From IMG/VR virus record IMGVR_UViG_2579778529_000002, positions 1-5,702 of that record: a DNA stretch of 5,702 bases; one strand, written 5' to 3'. Source of the stretch: a virus (Duplodnaviria; Heunggongvirae; Uroviricota; Caudoviricetes). The notes beneath the pieces were generated by a model, which did not search any database, was not told where the DNA came from, and saw only the letters and a list, made by a program, of their open reading frames with translations. Shown here one piece after another: positions 1,390-5,702 of this stretch; position 1 is the stretch's first letter, and every line of letters begins with the position of its first letter. The position numbers and the translations under genes were made by a program.

Positions 1390-3576
1390 ATGAGCACAAA
1401 ATTCAAAACCGTTATCACCACTGCCGGTGCAGCAAAGCTGGCAGCGGCAACCGCGCCGGGAGGGCGGAAGGTCAACATTACCACGATGGCTGTCGGGGAT
1501 GGCGGTGGTAAATTGCCTGTCCCGGATGCCGGACAGACCGGGCTTATCCATGAAGTCTGGCGACATGCGCTGAACAAAATCAGCCAGGACAAACGAAACA
1601 GTAATTATATTATCGCAGAGCTGGTTATTCCGCCGGAGGTGGGTGGTTTCTGGATGCGTGAGCTTGGCCTGTACGATGATGCGGGAACGTTAATTGCCGT
1701 GGCGAACATGGCCGAAAGTTATAAGCCAGCTCTTGCCGAAGGCTCAGGGCGTTCGCAGACCTGTCGCATGGTCATCATCGTCAGCAGTGTGGCATCGGTG
1801 GAGCTGACCATTGACACCACAACGGTGATGGCGACGCAGGATTACGTTGATGACAAAATTGCAGAGCACGAACAGTCACGACGTCACCCGGACGCCTCGC
1901 TGACCGCAAAAGGTTTTACTCAGTTAAGCAGTGCGACCAACAGCACGTCTGAAACGCTCGCCGCAACACCAAAAGCGGTAAAGGCCGCGTATGACCTTGC
2001 TAACGGGAAATACACTGCACAGGACGCCACCACAGCGAGAAAAGGTCTTGTCCAGCTCAGTAGCGTCACCAACAGCGATTCTGAAATGCTTGCGGCAACG
2101 CCAAAGGCGGTAAAGGCCGCGTATGACCTTGCTAACGGGAAATACACTGCACAGGATGCCACCACGGCGCGAAAAGGGCTTGTCCAGCTCAGTAGCGCCA
2201 CCAACAGTGATTCTGAAACGCTGGCCGCAACACCAAAAGCGGTGAAGTCTGCCTATGACAATGCTGAAAAACGTCTTCAGAAAGATCAGAACGGTGCGGA
2301 TATTCCGGGAAAGGATACCTTCACGAAAAATATCGGTGCCTGTCGTGCTTATAGCGGCGCTTTGAGCACTGAAGCCGGAAACTGGACAACCGCTCAGTTT
2401 ATTGAATGGCTGGATTCCCGCGGTGCATTTAATCATCCGTACTGGATGTGCAAAGGCTCCTGGTCATATGCAAATAACAAAATCATTACGGATACCGGAT
2501 GTGGTGATATCCACCTGGCAGGTTGTGTCGTCGAGGTCATGGGAACTAAATCTGCAATCACTATCCGAGTGACCACGCCGACAACATCAAGTGGTGGCGG
2601 TACAACCAGCGCGCAATTCACTTACATTAATCATGGGGACGGCTACTCCCCCGGCTGGCGTCGTGACTGGAATCGTCAGGGCGACGCAATGACCGGAACG
2701 ATTAATCAGGATGGCGGAAGCCAGAATGCCTATATGTCTACGGCCTTATGTTCAGGCACCAGAGGCGGCAAAAAATATCTCAGAAAGTTTCGTGGTGGAG
2801 AAGGAGACACTATCTGGCATGAAACAGTGCAGGGCGGGGTAATTCGCTGGGCGACAGGAAACTATGACGCTCAGGAAGAATTATCACTCAGCTCCGCTTA
2901 TGGTCTCCGTTCTAGAGGTGAAATTACATCACTCAGTGCTAATGGTCTGCGCATTGCTTATGGCAATTATGGATTCTTTATCAGGAATGATGGTGGCAGC
3001 ACATATTTAATGCTGACGGCCTCTGGTGATAAATTTGGGACATGGAACGGTTTAAGGCCGCTGACTATCAATAACGCTAATGGCGGAGTGTCAATGGGGC
3101 ATGGCCTGAGTGTTACTGGTGATATTGCCTCAAGTACCAAAGTACGTGCCGGTAGCGGGAAAAAGTTCACGGTCAGCAGCAGCAATACATCCACGAAGGA
3201 AGCCGCATTCAATTTGTGGGGAAACTCAAGTCGTCCTGTGGTGGCTGAATTAGGTGATGATGCAGGCTGGCATTTTTACAGTCAGAGAAATACAGATAAC
3301 AGCATCACTTTTGCTGTTAACGGGCAGGTATCACCATCTAACTATAGTAATTTTGATTCACGCTATGTCCGGGATATCCGGCTTGGTGGTGCTGCCACAT
3401 ACAAACCTGCGAACAATGGCATGACATGGACACATCAGGCACCGTCCGGGTGTGTATATTCCGGCATTATTGTTCAGGATACCGGCTCAAACTCTGCCGA
3501 TAACATTGGTGGCGTATATTACAGACCGGTGCAGAAATACATTAACGGGACTTGGTATAACGTGGCGCAGGTATAA
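1390..3576 (+). CDS. H: Tail fibre protein (P2 gpH-like); conserved N-terminal baseplate-attachment region, internal repeats, variable C-terminal receptor-binding region
   Basis: 728-aa ORF with a GAGGA Shine-Dalgarno at 1382-1386, following I. The N-terminus (MSTKFKTVITTAGAAKLAAATAPGG...) resembles the P2/186-family tail-fibre N-terminus. It contains ATPKAVKxAYD-type fibre repeats and a Gly/Ser/Thr/Asn-rich C-terminal half typical of fibre tips. The product is longer than the ~669 aa I recall for P2 H. Confidence 0.9.
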   Translation: MSTKFKTVITTAGAAKLAAATAPGGRKVNITTMAVGDGGGKLPVPDAGQTGLIHEVWRHALNKISQDKRNSNYIIAELVIPPEVGGFWMRELGLYDDAGTLIAVANMAESYKPALAEGSGRSQTCRMVIIVSSVASVELTIDTTTVMATQDYVDDKIAEHEQSRRHPDASLTAKGFTQLSSATNSTSETLAATPKAVKAAYDLANGKYTAQDATTARKGLVQLSSVTNSDSEMLAATPKAVKAAYDLANGKYTAQDATTARKGLVQLSSATNSDSETLAATPKAVKSAYDNAEKRLQKDQNGADIPGKDTFTKNIGACRAYSGALSTEAGNWTTAQFIEWLDSRGAFNHPYWMCKGSWSYANNKIITDTGCGDIHLAGCVVEVMGTKSAITIRVTTPTTSSGGGTTSAQFTYINHGDGYSPGWRRDWNRQGDAMTGTINQDGGSQNAYMSTALCSGTRGGKKYLRKFRGGEGDTIWHETVQGGVIRWATGNYDAQEELSLSSAYGLRSRGEITSLSANGLRIAYGNYGFFIRNDGGSTYLMLTASGDKFGTWNGLRPLTINNANGGVSMGHGLSVTGDIASSTKVRAGSGKKFTVSSSNTSTKEAAFNLWGNSSRPVVAELGDDAGWHFYSQRNTDNSITFAVNGQVSPSNYSNFDSRYVRDIRLGGAATYKPANNGMTWTHQAPSGCVYSGIIVQDTGSNSADNIGGVYYRPVQKYINGTWYNVAQV
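1912..2262 (+). repeat. Three in-frame tandem repeats of 132 bp (44 aa) inside H; units at 1912-2043 and 2044-2175 are near-identical, the third (2176 to about 2262) is partial and diverging
   Basis: Direct reading: GFTQLSSATNSTSETLAATPKAVKAAYDLANGKYTAQDATTARK, then GLVQLSSVTNSDSEMLAATPKAVKAAYDLANGKYTAQDATTARK, then GLVQLSSATNSDSETLAATPKAVKSAYD... The nucleotide sequence is also near-identical between units 1 and 2. Confidence 0.9.
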
Positions 3577-3579
3577 TTT

Positions 3580-4107
3580 ATGCAGCATTTGATAAATATA
3601 ACGGCAGGTAATCCAAAAACGGTTGGACAATATCAATTGACAAAGGACTTTGATGTTGTCTGGTTTTTTTCAGAAGATGGTAAGAACTGGTACGAAGAAC
3701 AAAAGTATTTTGCTGATGACACGATAAAAATAGCGTACGACAAAGATAATATTATCCGCTATGTGGAAAAGGATGTGACAGCTATCAGACCGGATGGATT
3801 AAGTGTTGTTGAAGTGCCGGATATTACTGCTAACCGACGGGCGGATATTTCAGGGGGCTGGATGTTTAAGGACGGCAAAGTGATTAAACGCATTTATACG
3901 GCAGAGGAATTACAGCAGCAGGCAGAAATTCGGAAAGCCAGACTTCTTGCAGATGCTGAATCCGTGATTTTGCCGCTGGAGCGCGCTGTCAGGCTGAATA
4001 TGGCAACAGAGGAGGAGCGCACACGACTGGAAGCATGGGAACGCTACAGCGTTCTGGTCAGTCGTGTGGATCCTGCAAATCCTGAATGGCCGGAAATGCC
4101 GCAATAG
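3580..4107 (+). CDS. G: Tail fibre assembly chaperone (P2 gpG-like)
   Basis: 175-aa ORF starting 3 nt after the H stop (TAA 3574-3576, ATG 3580), so likely translationally coupled. Size and position immediately downstream of the fibre gene match P2 gpG and the tail-fibre-assembly family. Stop TAG at 4105-4107. Confidence 0.85.
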
Positions 4108-4239
4108 ATGTATTAGCTCTGATGTGGGGTTACGCATCTATAGCACAGTGTAGAACCCAATCTGGCGGTCTGCCCTGTGCCAAATGCGGAAATTATGCCC
4201 CAATTCAGTGTTAATAAATGCAAATAATCTACGGTAAAG

Positions 4240-4364
4240 AAAAAGGGATGCTTGTAACTACTTCACATAAACATTATTGTGGTAAAACATACAGTCAAGT
4301 TATCATTTGTAACCTATTGGCATGTATGCTGTATCTATGTTAACTCAAGCGGAAAGTAATTATC
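4240..4364 (+). promoter_or_regulatory. Putative own promoter and RBS region for the cargo ORF
   Basis: AT-rich 257-bp untranslated gap upstream of the ORF. It contains a TGnTAAAAC extended -10-like element (TG at 4280-4281, hexamer 4283-4288), TTGTAA -35-like hexamers at 4252-4257 and 4307-4312, and a weak SD GGAAAG at 4351-4356, 8 nt before the ATG at 4365. The -35 to -10 spacing is not ideal for any pairing I tried, so the exact promoter is not resolved. Confidence 0.3.
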
Positions 4365-5069
4365 ATGGAAAAAATTAAAGCACCTTGCCCATACTGTAAA
4401 GGTGAAAAAAATTGTCTCACAATAGGTCATAAAAAAAGAGAGTGGAGTAAAAATGATGGGGATAACTATTTTTGGGCTGAGAGTGAATATAATTTATTAG
4501 AGTGTATGGGGTGTGATGGAATATTTACATATATAAAGTCCCGTCACAGTGAAGATTACGACATAGAAAGGGATGGCTCGGGGCATGATTTTATGATATA
4601 TAACGAGCATATATCAATATATCCTGCTCAAGAACAGGATGAAATTAGACCTGATTGGTTTGGTGAGGTGCTAAGCAAAGATTATCAGCTATATGTAATA
4701 ATGAACGAAATGTATATCGCATTTCAAAATAAATCATTCATTTTGGCGGCGATTGGGCTTAGAACTATTTTTGACAGAACTGTTGAGGTTCTGGATATTC
4801 ACCCCGGGCATACATTAAGCCAGAAAGTTGATATTCTCAAAGATGAAGGTTTTATCGGGGAAAAAGAAAAAGAGCAACTTAAAATTGTAACTGAAGCTGG
4901 CAACTCAGCTGCACATAGGGCATGGGCACCGAGCGAAGATGAATTTAAATCGCTTTTGGCTGTTATAGAAAGCTTTGTAATGCGAACAATACTAAAAGAT
5001 AATAACATTTTTAAAATCGTAGAAAAACTACCAGAAAAACACTCAAGGCCACCAAAAAAACAAGAATAA
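4365..5069 (+). CDS. Hypothetical protein, 234 aa: N-terminal CxxC...CxxC zinc-ribbon-like module plus a C-terminal domain of unknown function; candidate anti-phage defence / lysogenic-conversion protein (possibly a Z/fun-like gene)
   Basis: Only long ORF in the AT-rich segment, with uninterrupted + strand coding and stop TAA at 5067-5069. Cys8-x2-Cys11 and Cys47-x2-Cys50 are arranged like a zinc ribbon. The C-terminal part has a GNSAAH motif (about residues 179-184) followed by a region of helix-favouring composition. The codon usage is clearly foreign to the flanking phage genes. I do not recognise the family with certainty. Confidence 0.7.
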   Translation: MEKIKAPCPYCKGEKNCLTIGHKKREWSKNDGDNYFWAESEYNLLECMGCDGIFTYIKSRHSEDYDIERDGSGHDFMIYNEHISIYPAQEQDEIRPDWFGEVLSKDYQLYVIMNEMYIAFQNKSFILAAIGLRTIFDRTVEVLDIHPGHTLSQKVDILKDEGFIGEKEKEQLKIVTEAGNSAAHRAWAPSEDEFKSLLAVIESFVMRTILKDNNIFKIVEKLPEKHSRPPKKQE

Positions 5070-5315
5070 TGTACCTAAATATAAACAGAGCTAAGAGATT
5101 ATGTCTTGGCTCTGGTTAATCTCCAGTAGTGCATGATTTTTGCAATGACCTGACTGAACATTTAAACGAGGAAAATATCCCATATTTGCTTTTCACTGTG
5201 AGTTCAGCCTGTGGGTGTAACACTGGTTAAAACGCTCTGCGAGTGATTCATTGTCTAGCGTTCTGGCTATATTAATTTTCAGTTGGAAACTGAGTAAGTA
5301 CAGATAAAGACAGGC

Positions 5316-5339
5316 AGGCGGATTACCCGCCTTTTCTTT
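5316..5339 (+). terminator. Putative Rho-independent terminator
   Basis: AGGCGG (5316-5321) pairs perfectly with CCGCCT (5327-5332) around a 5-nt loop ATTAC, followed directly by the T-tract TTTTCTTT (5332-5339). It lies downstream of the cargo ORF and upstream of FI. Confidence 0.5.
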
Positions 5340-5435
5340 GTCTGTTGTTTCATCCACTGACCAGCCAGGTCAAATAGCGTCTCATGCACTACCCAACAGA
5401 AAATAGTTGCACCCATTAACCACGGAGTTAAACGG
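5339..5435 (+). promoter_or_regulatory. Probable late-promoter region and RBS of the FI operon (P2 PF-equivalent)
   Basis: By synteny the FI operon promoter should lie here. There is an imperfect TGT-N12-cCA element (5339-5356) resembling the TGT-N12-ACA dyad of Ogr-dependent P2 late promoters, and a GGAG Shine-Dalgarno at 5424-5427, 8 nt before the FI ATG. No exact consensus match was found. Confidence 0.3.
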
Positions 5436-5702
5436 ATGAGCGACTATCATCATGGCGTGCAGGTGCTGGAGATTAACGACGGCACCCGCGTCATTTCCAC
5501 CGTATCCACGGCCATTGTCGGCATGGTTTGCACGGCCAGCGATGCGGATGCGGAAACCTTCCCCCTCAATAAACCTGTGCTGATCACCAATGTGCAGAGC
5601 GCAATTGCAAAGGCCGGTAAAAAAGGCACGCTGGCGGCGTCGTTGCAGGCCATCGCTGACCAGTCAAAACCGGTCACCGTAGTCGTGCGTGTGGAAGACG
5701 GC
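5436..5702 (+). CDS. FI: Tail sheath protein (P2 gpFI-like), 5' portion; continues beyond the window
   Basis: ATG at 5436 preceded by GGAG. The frame is open to the window end (89 codons). The translation [89 protein letters not shown] matches my recollection of the P2 tail sheath N-terminus. It is absent from the supplied ORF track only because no stop falls inside the window. Confidence 0.88.

What the first reader, a model, noticed from the sequence alone, without database searches (positions are those of the whole stretch)
4365..5069. Single AT-rich cargo gene between tail-fibre chaperone G and tail sheath FI: candidate anti-phage defence gene
The 234-aa ORF interrupts an otherwise contiguous structural gene block at the position where P2 carries the non-essential Z/fun gene. 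From established knowledge, P2's lysogenic-conversion genes (old, tin, Z/fun) are unusually AT-rich, and the homologous positions in P2-like prophages are documented hotspots for diverse anti-phage systems. This gene shares both properties: foreign AT-rich composition and the exact hotspot position. I cannot assign it to a named defence family, so it may be a Z/fun homologue (T5-excluding but, to my knowledge, mechanistically poorly understood) or an undescribed single-gene system.
Basis: partly seen in the sequence, partly recalled or inferred. Interest (0 to 1): 0.8.

Follow-up and report, generated by a model that had tools for sequence, protein, structure and literature searches.

The report
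RAZR-like zinc-finger HEPN defence candidate
An AT-rich foreign gene between the tail genes of a P2-like prophage encodes a zinc-finger plus HEPN-fold protein that is an untested, distant relative of the anti-phage RNase RAZR, lacks RAZR's catalytic arginine, and sits where sister phages carry known defence genes.

Summary
ORF 4365-5069 (+, 234 aa; GC 35%, GC3 28%) lies between tail-fibre assembly gene G and sheath gene FI of a P2-like prophage, in a variable slot (~4197-5255).

Homology to a true RAZR-family protein is remote (24% identity, E=3e-6), and the PADLOC PD-T7-4 model does not detect it. RAZR's essential R146 is Thr176 here and is never basic in 151 representatives. H184, R133, D137, K154 and R185 are near-invariant.

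The ~1 kb cassette occurs in P2-like, Rac-like and Mu/e14-like prophages and an ICE (dN/dS 0.15). In a second P2-like clade, family members fill the S|V slot in 10 of 77 phages; there the alternatives include Shedu, PifA, AbiV and RAZR itself.

Most likely it is a phage-triggered, RAZR-like abortive-infection effector with a rewired active site. This is untested. It may be the family of the validated DS-38, which I could not check.

The parts
4365..5069 (+). Single-gene cargo ORF, 234 aa: zinc-finger + DUF4145/HEPN protein
   Evidence: ORF list. Pfam DUF4145, aa 115-201, E=1.1e-13. PHROG 1305, full length, E=3.4e-32. dN/dS 0.15 against the Rac-type copy.
4365..4622 (+). N-terminal zinc-binding beta domain (aa 1-86), the presumed sensor. 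Cys4 ligands are C8 (4386-4388), C11 (4395-4397), C47 (4503-4505) and C50 (4512-4514).
4623..4658 (+). Linker (aa 87-98) with near-invariant P87, P96 and W98
   Evidence: Family alignment. RAZR also has a conserved, functionally required linker (PMC13017515).
4659..5000 (+). HEPN-fold (DUF4145) domain, aa 99-212. Conserved polar core: R133 (4761-4763), D137 (4773-4775), K154 (4824-4826), H184 (4914-4916), R185 (4917-4919). T176 (4890-4892) occupies the position of RAZR's catalytic R146.
5001..5066 (+). Disordered basic C-terminal tail (aa 213-234) with invariant P223 (LPxK..RPPK)
   Evidence: pLDDT below 50 for aa 214-234. P223 is present in 148 of 151. The tail aligns with the 'SLPES' tail of the RAZR-family protein.
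4172..5167 (+). Mobile ~1 kb cassette: gene plus ~190 nt upstream and ~100 nt downstream, shared at 80-82% nucleotide identity with four unrelated mobile-element backbones
   Evidence: blastn against a Rac-like prophage (L002/L003), a Mu/e14-like prophage (L013) and a Duffyella ICE (L008). The upstream 41-aa ORF 4218-4343 is not conserved.
4197..5255 (.). Variable cargo slot of the P2-like G|FI inter-operon junction
   Evidence: Backbone homology to P2, P2_4C9 and 12474III stops at ~4193-4196 and resumes at 5256. Other phages carry different cargo here.
4175..4191 (+). Left junction motif CTGTGCCAAATGCGGAA. It is conserved at the left edge of the slot in P2-like phages and also flanks the cassette in Rac-type and Mu/e14-type prophages.
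   Evidence: Alignment A3. The motif occurs once per prophage locus. Present in EC11.
5185..5202 (+). Degenerate right junction motif TTTGCTTTTCACTGTGAG, the inverted partner of the left motif
   Evidence: Alignment A4. Inverted repeats of 35-42 nt bracket the slot in L005 and L006.
4351..4356 (+). Shine-Dalgarno-like GGAAAG, 8 nt upstream of the ATG
   Evidence: Read directly from the sequence.
5300..5345 (+). Strong hairpin followed by a T-run: a terminator or insulator between the cargo and the pF late promoter
   Evidence: Terminator scan. DNA fold -12.2 kcal/mol, z = -5.75. Conserved in P2-like phages.
5340..5413 (+). Approximate pF late promoter region (Ogr-type activator site ~5340-5368, transcription start ~5411-5413), placed by homology to the P2 annotation
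   Evidence: P2 annotation transferred using the 86% alignment 5256-5684. The positions are inferred.
3580..4107 (+). Left flank: tail fibre assembly gene G, last gene of the V operon
   Evidence: Pfam Caudo_TAP E=1.3e-33. Annotation in L001.
5437..5702 (+). Right flank: start of tail sheath gene FI, which runs off the window
   Evidence: Sequence. Annotation in L001 and P2.

Best explanation
The ORF is a self-contained, horizontally mobile prophage cargo gene (a 'moron') that most likely protects the lysogen against other phages by abortive infection, working like RAZR. What is shown: it is a two-domain protein with an N-terminal Cys4 zinc-binding beta domain, a conserved linker, a C-terminal HEPN-fold DUF4145 domain and a short basic tail. 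It is a remote homologue of RAZR/PD-T7-4. It is under purifying selection. It travels as a ~1 kb cassette between accessory slots of unrelated mobile elements. It alternates with validated defence genes at a phage hotspot. What is inferred by analogy with RAZR: the protein is made in the lysogen from its own promoter and is harmless on its own. During infection by a competing phage, the variable zinc-finger domain binds a phage protein, possibly an oligomeric assembly. This re-arranges HEPN dimers into an active composite site that cleaves single-stranded cellular and phage RNA, so translation stops and the infection aborts. The family-specific twist is shown at sequence level, but its consequence is inferred. 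The canonical motif arginine (RAZR R146) is replaced by Thr, Val or Ile. I propose that H184, with the helix-2 acid D137, performs catalysis, and that phosphate stabilisation is supplied by other invariant basic residues (R185 next to the His, K154 in the helix 2-3 insert, and/or R133).
Against: There is no experimental evidence for this protein or, verifiably, for any member of its family. No PADLOC model detects it, and only 3 of 109 family members touch PD-T7-4, at E of 0.021 or worse. The arginine that is essential in RAZR is absent from the whole clade, so RNase activity is not assured. The N-terminal domain has no structural match, so calling it a sensor rests on analogy. No convincing sigma-70 promoter was found upstream. 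Five of the 14 copies in complete E. coli genomes look decayed: four have a 1-nt length change and one is split by IS1. A ZFD-less 158-aa form is recorded on 122 contigs. No homologue was found by tblastn in 50,697 GenBank phage records. I had no model coordinates, so the proximity of R133, K154 and R185 to H184 is not verified.
Confidence: 0.6

Rival explanations
1. It is a non-catalytic HEPN protein. Having lost the motif arginine, the domain only binds nucleic acid (as MtlR-type HEPN proteins do). It would act as a regulator, or as a stoichiometric blocker of translation or of a phage nucleic acid. It could still be defensive, but not an RNase.
For: The motif Arg is absent in all 151 representatives. 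PHROG 1305 is labelled 'DNA binding protein'. PMC3710099 notes non-catalytic HEPN domains and HEPN toxins that lack the motif.
Against: H184, R133, D137, K154 and R185 are invariant or nearly so across representative proteins drawn from separate 50%-identity clusters. That is the pattern of an active site, not merely a binding surface. His-only HEPN families are predicted to stay catalytic. The PHROG label is an untested annotation.
Confidence: 0.13
2. It is an addiction or competition module rather than phage defence. It could be a toxin that stabilises the mobile element, or an anti-plasmid system like the DUF4145/HEPN Ishtar proteins.
For: Family members sit on plasmids and ICEs, including ~100 kb Yersinia plasmids such as pMT of Y. 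pestis. Ishtar DUF4145 proteins block RP4 conjugation (bioRxiv 10.64898/2026.07.06.735840). HEPN toxins are common in toxin-antitoxin systems.
Against: No antitoxin-like partner exists: there is no MNT neighbour, the upstream small ORF is not conserved and there is no Rfam RNA. Ishtar has an N-terminal HEPN domain plus a different C-terminal domain, which is the opposite layout. The strongest context signal is phage-defence hotspots in prophages.
Confidence: 0.1
3. It is a counter-defence or phage-fitness gene: a moron that benefits the P2-like phage during its own lytic growth, for example by degrading host RNA or inhibiting a host defence, rather than protecting the lysogen.
For: Accessory hotspots of phages also hold anti-defence genes (PMC13586616 found some in P2). 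The gene lies between two late operons in the same orientation, so read-through from the V operon during lytic growth is conceivable.
Against: The same cassette occurs in ICE and plasmid contexts and in cryptic Rac-type prophages, where a lytic-cycle role makes little sense. The closest characterised relative is a host-protective abortive-infection protein. The slot alternatives are defence genes, not anti-defence genes.
Confidence: 0.06
4. It is a homologue of P2 Z/fun, or a conserved structural or assembly gene of the tail module.
For: Only its position between G and FI.
Against: Fun(Z) is 528 aa, on the opposite strand, with best pairwise E = 0.074. Only 1 of 5,426 complete E. coli genomes has this cargo at the slot, although 1,620 match the flanks. 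It is absent from all 115 P2-like phage records that match the flanks. In the second clade only 10 of 77 close relatives carry it.
Confidence: 0.01

Closest known systems
RAZR (ring-activated zinc-finger RNase; formerly PD-T7-4), E. coli UMB1727 - Zhang et al., Nature 2026 (PMC13017515); discovered by Vassallo et al. 2022 (PMC9519451)
   Same: A single-gene system of ~25 kDa. N-terminal Cys4 zinc-finger domain, conserved linker, C-terminal DUF4145/HEPN domain. The zinc-finger domain is the most variable region. The catalytic His is conserved (H154 = H184). A helix-2 Arg is shared (R133). A C-terminal 'LP' tail aligns. Both are carried on mobile elements. There is detectable homology (24% identity over 187 aa, E=3e-6).
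   Different: It is not detected by the PADLOC PD-T7-4 model. RAZR's essential R146 is Thr176 here and is never basic in the clade. Instead D137, K154 and R185 are invariant, where the RAZR-family protein has Q, D and P. The N-terminal domain is ~20 residues longer, has seven strands and has no solved structural neighbour, whereas RAZR's ZFD is described as close to an RPB9-type zinc ribbon. The triggers, oligomeric state and RNase activity of this protein are unknown.
DS-38 (DefensePredictor-validated system; bioRxiv 10.1101/2025.01.08.631726)
   Same: It is described as a single E. coli protein with HEPN and zinc-finger domains that protects against phage. Only its HEPN domain superposes on PD-T7-4, and it escapes the DefenseFinder and PADLOC models. 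That is the profile found here.
   Different: Its sequence and accession are not available in the held text and no supplement is held, so identity with this family could not be tested. None of the 14 complete E. coli genomes carrying the gene is an ECOR or UMB strain by name.
P2 Fun(Z) (NP_046777), the classical occupant of the G-FI slot
   Same: Same inter-operon slot. Non-essential, AT-rich cargo. Annotated as lysogenic conversion that blocks T5.
   Different: Unrelated protein: 528 aa, opposite strand, no significant similarity (E = 0.074), and no PADLOC hit.
Other DUF4145/HEPN defence proteins: BxaP (PMC10799925) and Ishtar1/2 (bioRxiv 10.64898/2026.07.06.735840)
   Same: A DUF4145-type HEPN domain serves as the presumed effector, in mobile or defence-island contexts.
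   Different: The domain partners and order differ. Both have an N-terminal DUF4145 followed by a HEAT-like or unknown C-terminal domain, and neither has a zinc finger.
HEPN families that keep the His but lack the motif Arg (Parep1/8; c2405 of the DUF4145-like group) - Anantharaman et al. 2013 (PMC3710099)
   Same: [quoted passage not shown]
   Different: These are different families with different fusion partners (AbiTii or archaeal contexts). No biochemical demonstration exists for them either.

Membership tests
RAZR / PD-T7-4 | Significant match to the family profile (PADLOC PDLC04109) | tested here: not met
   The window protein has no PD-T7-4 hit, even with the E-value limit set to 10 (the tool notes that HMMER's filters drop most matches above ~0.1). 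Only 3 of 109 family members hit, with best E=0.021. A true member scanned the same way gives E=3.3e-82.
RAZR / PD-T7-4 | N-terminal Cys4 zinc-finger domain | tested here: met
   C8/C11 and C47/C50 are conserved in 140 of 151 representatives. The beta-rich model has pLDDT 89. The domain is larger than RAZR's and has no solved structural neighbour.
RAZR / PD-T7-4 | C-terminal DUF4145 (divergent HEPN) domain | tested here: met
RAZR / PD-T7-4 | Catalytic histidine (H154) | tested here: met
   H184 aligns with H206 of the PD-T7-4 member, which is profile position 154. It is invariant in 151/151.
RAZR / PD-T7-4 | Catalytic arginine (R146), whose Ala mutant loses defence | tested here: not met
   The equivalent position is T176. 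It is T, V, I or A in the family and never basic.
RAZR / PD-T7-4 | Activation by assembly around phage ring proteins (portal, Erf-like); ssRNA cleavage; abortive-infection phenotype | not testable with these tools
   This needs phage challenge, escape mutants, biochemistry and cryo-EM.
Pfam DUF4145 (PF13643) | Score above the curated gathering threshold | tested here: met
   51.5 bits against 23.1; aa 115-201 cover profile positions 2-87 of 88.
HEPN superfamily | [quoted passage not shown] | tested here: met
HEPN superfamily | Rx4-6H motif at the end of helix 3 | tested here: not met
   Only the His is present (H184). No R or K occurs at -9..-1, apart from 2 of 151 sequences at one position.
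HEPN superfamily | Conserved acidic residue on helix 2, proximal to the motif | tested here: met
   D137 (146 D + 5 E of 151) lies on helix 125-142. The criterion is from PMC3710099. Spatial proximity was not measured.
P2 Fun(Z) | Sequence homology to NP_046777 | tested here: not met
   BLASTP best E=0.074 over 40 aa; 528 aa against 234 aa; opposite strand.
P2-like G|FI hotspot cargo (moron) | Variable occupancy between conserved flanks, and foreign composition | tested here: met
   Flanks conserved at 78-93% identity, with different cargo in P2, P2_4C9 and 12474III. Slot GC 0.357 against 0.52-0.58 for the flanking sequence.
DS-38 (DefensePredictor) | Sequence identity or homology to the validated DS-38 protein | not testable with these tools
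   Only a verbal description is held, with no sequence or supplement.
HEPN-MNT type II toxin-antitoxin | Adjacent minimal nucleotidyltransferase antitoxin gene | tested here: not met
   No neighbouring gene lies within the cassette. The upstream 41-aa ORF is not conserved.
PHROG 1305 | Full-length match to the phage protein family profile | tested here: met
   E=3.4e-32; aa 3-226 against profile positions 14-223 of 226. The family label 'DNA binding protein' is an untested annotation.

The most novel reading that the evidence does not exclude
This clade is a distinct, widespread sister family of RAZR. At least 262 representative clusters (at 50% identity) match the full-length profile at E<=1e-30. 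In it the HEPN active site has been rebuilt: the motif Arg is lost and D137, K154 and R185 are gained as invariant residues. A structurally new zinc-binding beta domain would sense a different class of phage triggers, so its activation geometry, substrate or chemistry may differ from RAZR's ring-templated nonspecific ssRNA cleavage.
Probability: 0.3. Interest if true: 0.65.

Novelty: new variant of a known kind. Interest (0 to 1): 0.45.

Why it matters
If the gene protects against phage, it adds a sizeable family to the zinc-finger/HEPN class of single-protein immune sensors. That family is currently unannotated: every source calls it 'DUF4145 domain-containing protein' or 'hypothetical', and PADLOC 2.0 does not detect it. 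It also offers a natural experiment on HEPN catalysis, because the arginine that is indispensable in RAZR is replaced throughout the clade while a different set of charged residues is invariant. Mutagenesis of five or six residues would show whether HEPN RNases can relocate their phosphate-binding residue. The variable N-terminal domain could reveal new phage-encoded triggers. The finding also shows one cassette moving between P2-like, lambdoid and Mu/e14-like prophages and an ICE, and it identifies the S|V junction of a high-GC P2-like clade as a rich defence hotspot.

Tried and rejected
1. Z/fun homology: rejected.
3. A conserved partner gene, small ORF or RNA in the cassette: rejected. The 41-aa upstream ORF has stops in all frames in the Rac-type copy, and there are no Rfam hits.
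4. An attC-like or structured recombination hairpin at the tandem-cassette junction in EC11: not supported (z=-0.77).
5. A clear sigma-70 promoter upstream of the ORF: none found by the consensus scan. Only a weak extended -10-like TGGTAAAAC near 4281-4289 was seen by eye.
6. A core or structural role in the high-GC P2-like clade, where ~30 loci carry the gene next to V: rejected, because only 10 of 77 close relatives have it.
7. Identifying DS-38: the preprint holds no sequence or supplement, and no other paper mentions it.
8. Nilsson et al. 2004 (on recombination at the Z/fun locus) is not held.
9. NCBIfam: no hit.
10. tblastn against GenBank phage records: no hit.

Full report
**1. The observation**

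The window holds the 3' part of the P2-type V operon. By Pfam these are Baseplate_J 89-856, Tail_P2_I 849-1379, tail fibre H 1390-3576 and tail-fibre assembly protein G 3580-4107. The start of sheath gene FI is at 5437.

Between G and FI lies one ORF of 234 aa, 4365-5069 on the + strand. It is preceded by 257 nt and followed by 367 nt of non-coding DNA.

Its composition is foreign. GC is 0.355 and GC3 is 0.282, against GC3 of 0.43-0.63 in J, I, H and G. The whole slot 4197-5255 has GC 0.357.

An identical cassette in E. coli O121 strain 201805972 lies between genes annotated as tail fibre assembly protein and tail sheath protein, inside a complete P2-like prophage next to fieF/pfkA.

**2. The slot**

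Homology to P2, P2_4C9 and vB_EcoM-12474III stops at ~4193-4196 and resumes at 5256. In the slot those phages carry Fun(Z) (528 aa, minus strand), NUDIX + HAD hydrolases, or a SMEK-domain protein.

All 115 phage records that match the flanks lack this cargo.

The literature describes this locus as variable and defence-enriched. Vassallo 2022 reports a second hotspot containing fun and three of their systems. PMC13586616 reports a hotspot within the P2 tail genes.

A strong hairpin with a T-run at 5300-5345 (z = -5.75) separates the cargo from the pF promoter region. I placed that region at ~5340-5413 by homology to the P2 annotation.

**3. What the protein is**

- Pfam finds DUF4145 at aa 115-201 (E = 1.1e-13).
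- PHROG 1305 matches full length (E = 3.4e-32).
- NCBIfam finds nothing, and PADLOC finds only noise.

DUF4145 is a divergent HEPN family. Zinc-ribbon fusions were already noted in 2013 (PMC3710099).

**4. The family**

The word-indexed search found only 14 clusters. The exhaustive profile search found 2,589 representatives at E <= 1e-3 and 262 at E <= 1e-30. Most are ~230 aa and align full length.

Conservation across 151 sequences:

| Residue | Count |
|---|---|
| R133 | 151 |
| H184 | 151 |
| K154 | 150 |
| W187 | 150 |
| R185 | 147 |
| D137 | 146 (+5 E) |
| All four Cys | 140 |

The zinc-finger domain is more variable than the HEPN domain: 2.69 against 2.13 bits of entropy, and 27% against 37% identity to the query.

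All names given by sources are 'DUF4145 domain-containing protein' or 'hypothetical'.

**5. Relation to RAZR**

RAZR (PD-T7-4) has a Cys4 zinc-finger domain, a conserved linker and a DUF4145/HEPN domain. R146 and H154 are required for defence. It is non-toxic alone, it assembles as a 24-mer around phage portal or Erf-like rings through its zinc-finger domain, and it then cleaves ssRNA to abort infection. The zinc-finger domain sets specificity and is the most variable region (PMC13017515).

I could not find RAZR in the PDB copies. However, one cargo protein from an IMG/VR P2-like phage (L110, 263 aa) scores E = 3.3e-82 on PADLOC PD-T7-4.

- BLASTP of the window protein against it gives 24% identity over 187 aa, E = 3e-6. 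The alignment runs from the second CxxC through the linker and HEPN domain to the C-terminal LP tail.
- hhalign with the family profile gives E = 1.6e-4.
- The PD-T7-4 member's motif VRVIGNSAVH places R198/H206 at profile positions 146/154, which are RAZR's catalytic pair.
- The window protein reads VTEAGNSAAH. So H184 = H154, but T176 = R146.

Across the family the -8 position is T, V, I or A. No basic residue occurs from -9 to -1 of the His, except in 2 of 151 sequences at one position.

Conversely, D137, K154 and R185 are invariant here. They align with Q, D and P in the RAZR-family protein.

The window protein is therefore a remote homologue with the same architecture, but it is not a member of PD-T7-4 as currently defined. 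Its active-site neighbourhood is rewired.

[quoted passage not shown] That matches H184 and D137 in the model. The same paper describes His-only families in which other basic residues are thought to substitute for the Arg.

**6. Mobility and selection**

The gene with ~190 nt upstream and ~100 nt downstream (window ~4172-5167) recurs at 80-82% nucleotide identity in several backbones:

- Rac-like lambdoid prophages, next to a dGTPase defence gene (PADLOC 5.7e-144), a PDC-S32 candidate, an MBL-fold protein and Hok.
- A Mu/e14-like prophage, directly after the pinE invertase.
- A Duffyella gerundensis ICE.

More distant members lie in a conjugative-element island with AbiTii, PLD, Macro, toxin-antitoxin pairs and a second paralogue. 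Others lie at the end of a lambda-like prophage, and on Yersinia and Enterobacter plasmids.

dN/dS between the P2-type and Rac-type copies is 0.15.

Prevalence is low: 14 of 5,426 complete E. coli genomes. Five of those copies appear decayed.

**7. Independent hotspot evidence**

A pattern scan of IMG/VR returned 47 loci. About 30 are P2-like phages of a high-GC clade, where the family member (GC 0.44-0.49 against ~0.60) lies 124-139 nt upstream of baseplate gene V, at the S|V inter-operon junction.

Sampling that clade through V instead shows that only 10 of 77 close relatives carry it.

The slot there varies from 508 to 2,876 bp and is always AT-rich. The alternative cargos include Shedu SduA (2.4e-198), PifA (9.5e-85), PD-T7-4 itself, AbiV, several PDC candidates, a KAP NTPase, HEPN_Toprim_N and Mrr-like proteins.

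In phage pairs whose J proteins are at least 90% identical, the family proteins are only 57-69% identical.

The gene therefore behaves as exchangeable, fast-evolving defence-type cargo, not as a structural gene.

**8. Mechanism**

The most likely reading (confidence about 0.6) is a RAZR-like, phage-triggered abortive-infection effector.

- The architecture, homology, conservation, selection, mobility and hotspot behaviour are shown.
- Expression in the lysogen, trigger binding by the zinc-finger domain, HEPN dimer activation and RNA cleavage are inferred by analogy.
- The proposal that R185, K154 or R133 replaces the missing motif Arg is an inference from conservation and from precedent in other HEPN families.

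The rivals are a non-catalytic HEPN binder (0.13), an addiction or anti-plasmid module (0.10), a counter-defence or phage-fitness gene (0.06), and Z/fun or structural homology (refuted).

**9. Novelty**

The kind is known: a zinc-finger + HEPN single-protein defence, as in RAZR. DS-38 is described as a validated zinc-finger + HEPN protein with a different zinc finger.

This clade is a variant. It is unrecognised by PADLOC, it lacks the catalytic Arg, and it has a distinct N-terminal domain. It may coincide with DS-38, which I could not test.

A specialist would find the defence assignment unsurprising. The altered active site and the size of the unannotated family are of moderate interest. Interest 0.45.

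Noticed in passing
window 4140-4196 and 5185-5260; L006 1069-1110 / 2535-2576; L005 1078-1112 / 2465-2499; L002 ~8002-8019 and ~9003-9024; L013 ~6808-6826 and ~7806-7827: The G|FI cargo slot of P2-like phages is bracketed by imperfect inverted repeats of 35-42 nt (AATCTGACAGTCCGCTCTGTGCCAAAAGCGGA ... TCCGCTTTTCGCTCAAAGCAGACTGTCAGATT). The core motifs GCCAAAAGCGG and GCTTTTCGCTCA also flank the same cassette in Rac-type and Mu/e14-type prophages. They may act as shared recombination anchors for cassette exchange. In the window the right arm is degraded.
   Followed up: partly
L013 7795-7885 (E. coli EC11): The right junction motif is followed ~20 nt later by a second left-like motif (CTCCGTGCCAGGCGTGGACA) before the next cargo ORF (8067-8846). 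This suggests tandem cassettes. The junction does not fold better than shuffled sequence (z=-0.77), so an attC-like hairpin is not supported.
   Followed up: partly
L062-L140 (IMG/VR P2-like phages, backbone GC ~0.60), between S and V: The S|V inter-operon junction is a hypervariable, AT-rich defence hotspot (508-2,876 bp). It carries Shedu, PifA, RAZR/PD-T7-4, AbiV, PDC-S15/S20/S31/S45 candidates, KAP NTPase, HEPN_Toprim_N, DUF4062, FRG, DUF3800 and many unassigned ORFs.
   Followed up: partly
L014 1921-2643 (Y. pestis pMT plasmid, NC_017266): The ~100 kb Y. pestis pMT-type plasmids carry a 42%-identical family member beside IS256 and IS1618 copies, about 5 kb from a gene annotated as phospholipase D. 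Y. enterocolitica and Enterobacter plasmids carry others.
   Followed up: no
L009 243-950 and 10001-10711: Two paralogous ZF-DUF4145 genes lie 9 kb apart on one conjugative-element contig, together with colicin and its immunity gene, AbiTii, PLD, Macro, YafQ/RelB and Gp49/HTH pairs.
   Followed up: no
E. coli genome hits H44, H49, H50, H52, H53; protein P0010: Several Rac-type copies are decayed. One is split by IS1 (strain ET979). Four match over 704 instead of 705 nt. A 158-aa form lacking the zinc-finger domain (aa 77-234) is recorded on 122 contigs.
   Followed up: partly
window 1920-2330 (gene H): There are three tandem ~132-nt repeats inside the tail fibre gene (Phage_fiber_2 repeats, ...ATPKAVKAAYDLANGKYTAQDATTARKGLVQLSS...). 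The H protein here is 728 aa, against 772 aa in the otherwise near-identical O121 prophage, so the window comes from a different prophage variant.
   Followed up: no
window ~2250-4107: GC drops progressively through the C-terminal half of H and through G (GC3 0.43 in G, against 0.63 in J). This is consistent with a separately exchanged host-range module upstream of the cargo slot.
   Followed up: no
L007 410-450 (P2) and window 4143-4180: A hairpin with an 11-bp stem lies just after G in P2 (z=-4.3) and overlaps the left repeat arm. Its counterpart in the window is weaker (z=-1.7).
   Followed up: partly
L002 6258-7484 (Rac-type prophage): The MBL-fold hydrolase next to the cassette has weak PADLOC similarity to LmuA, Avs1a and RT-associated MBL effector regions (E 2e-12 to 6e-6). 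It may be another uncharacterised defence effector.
   Followed up: no
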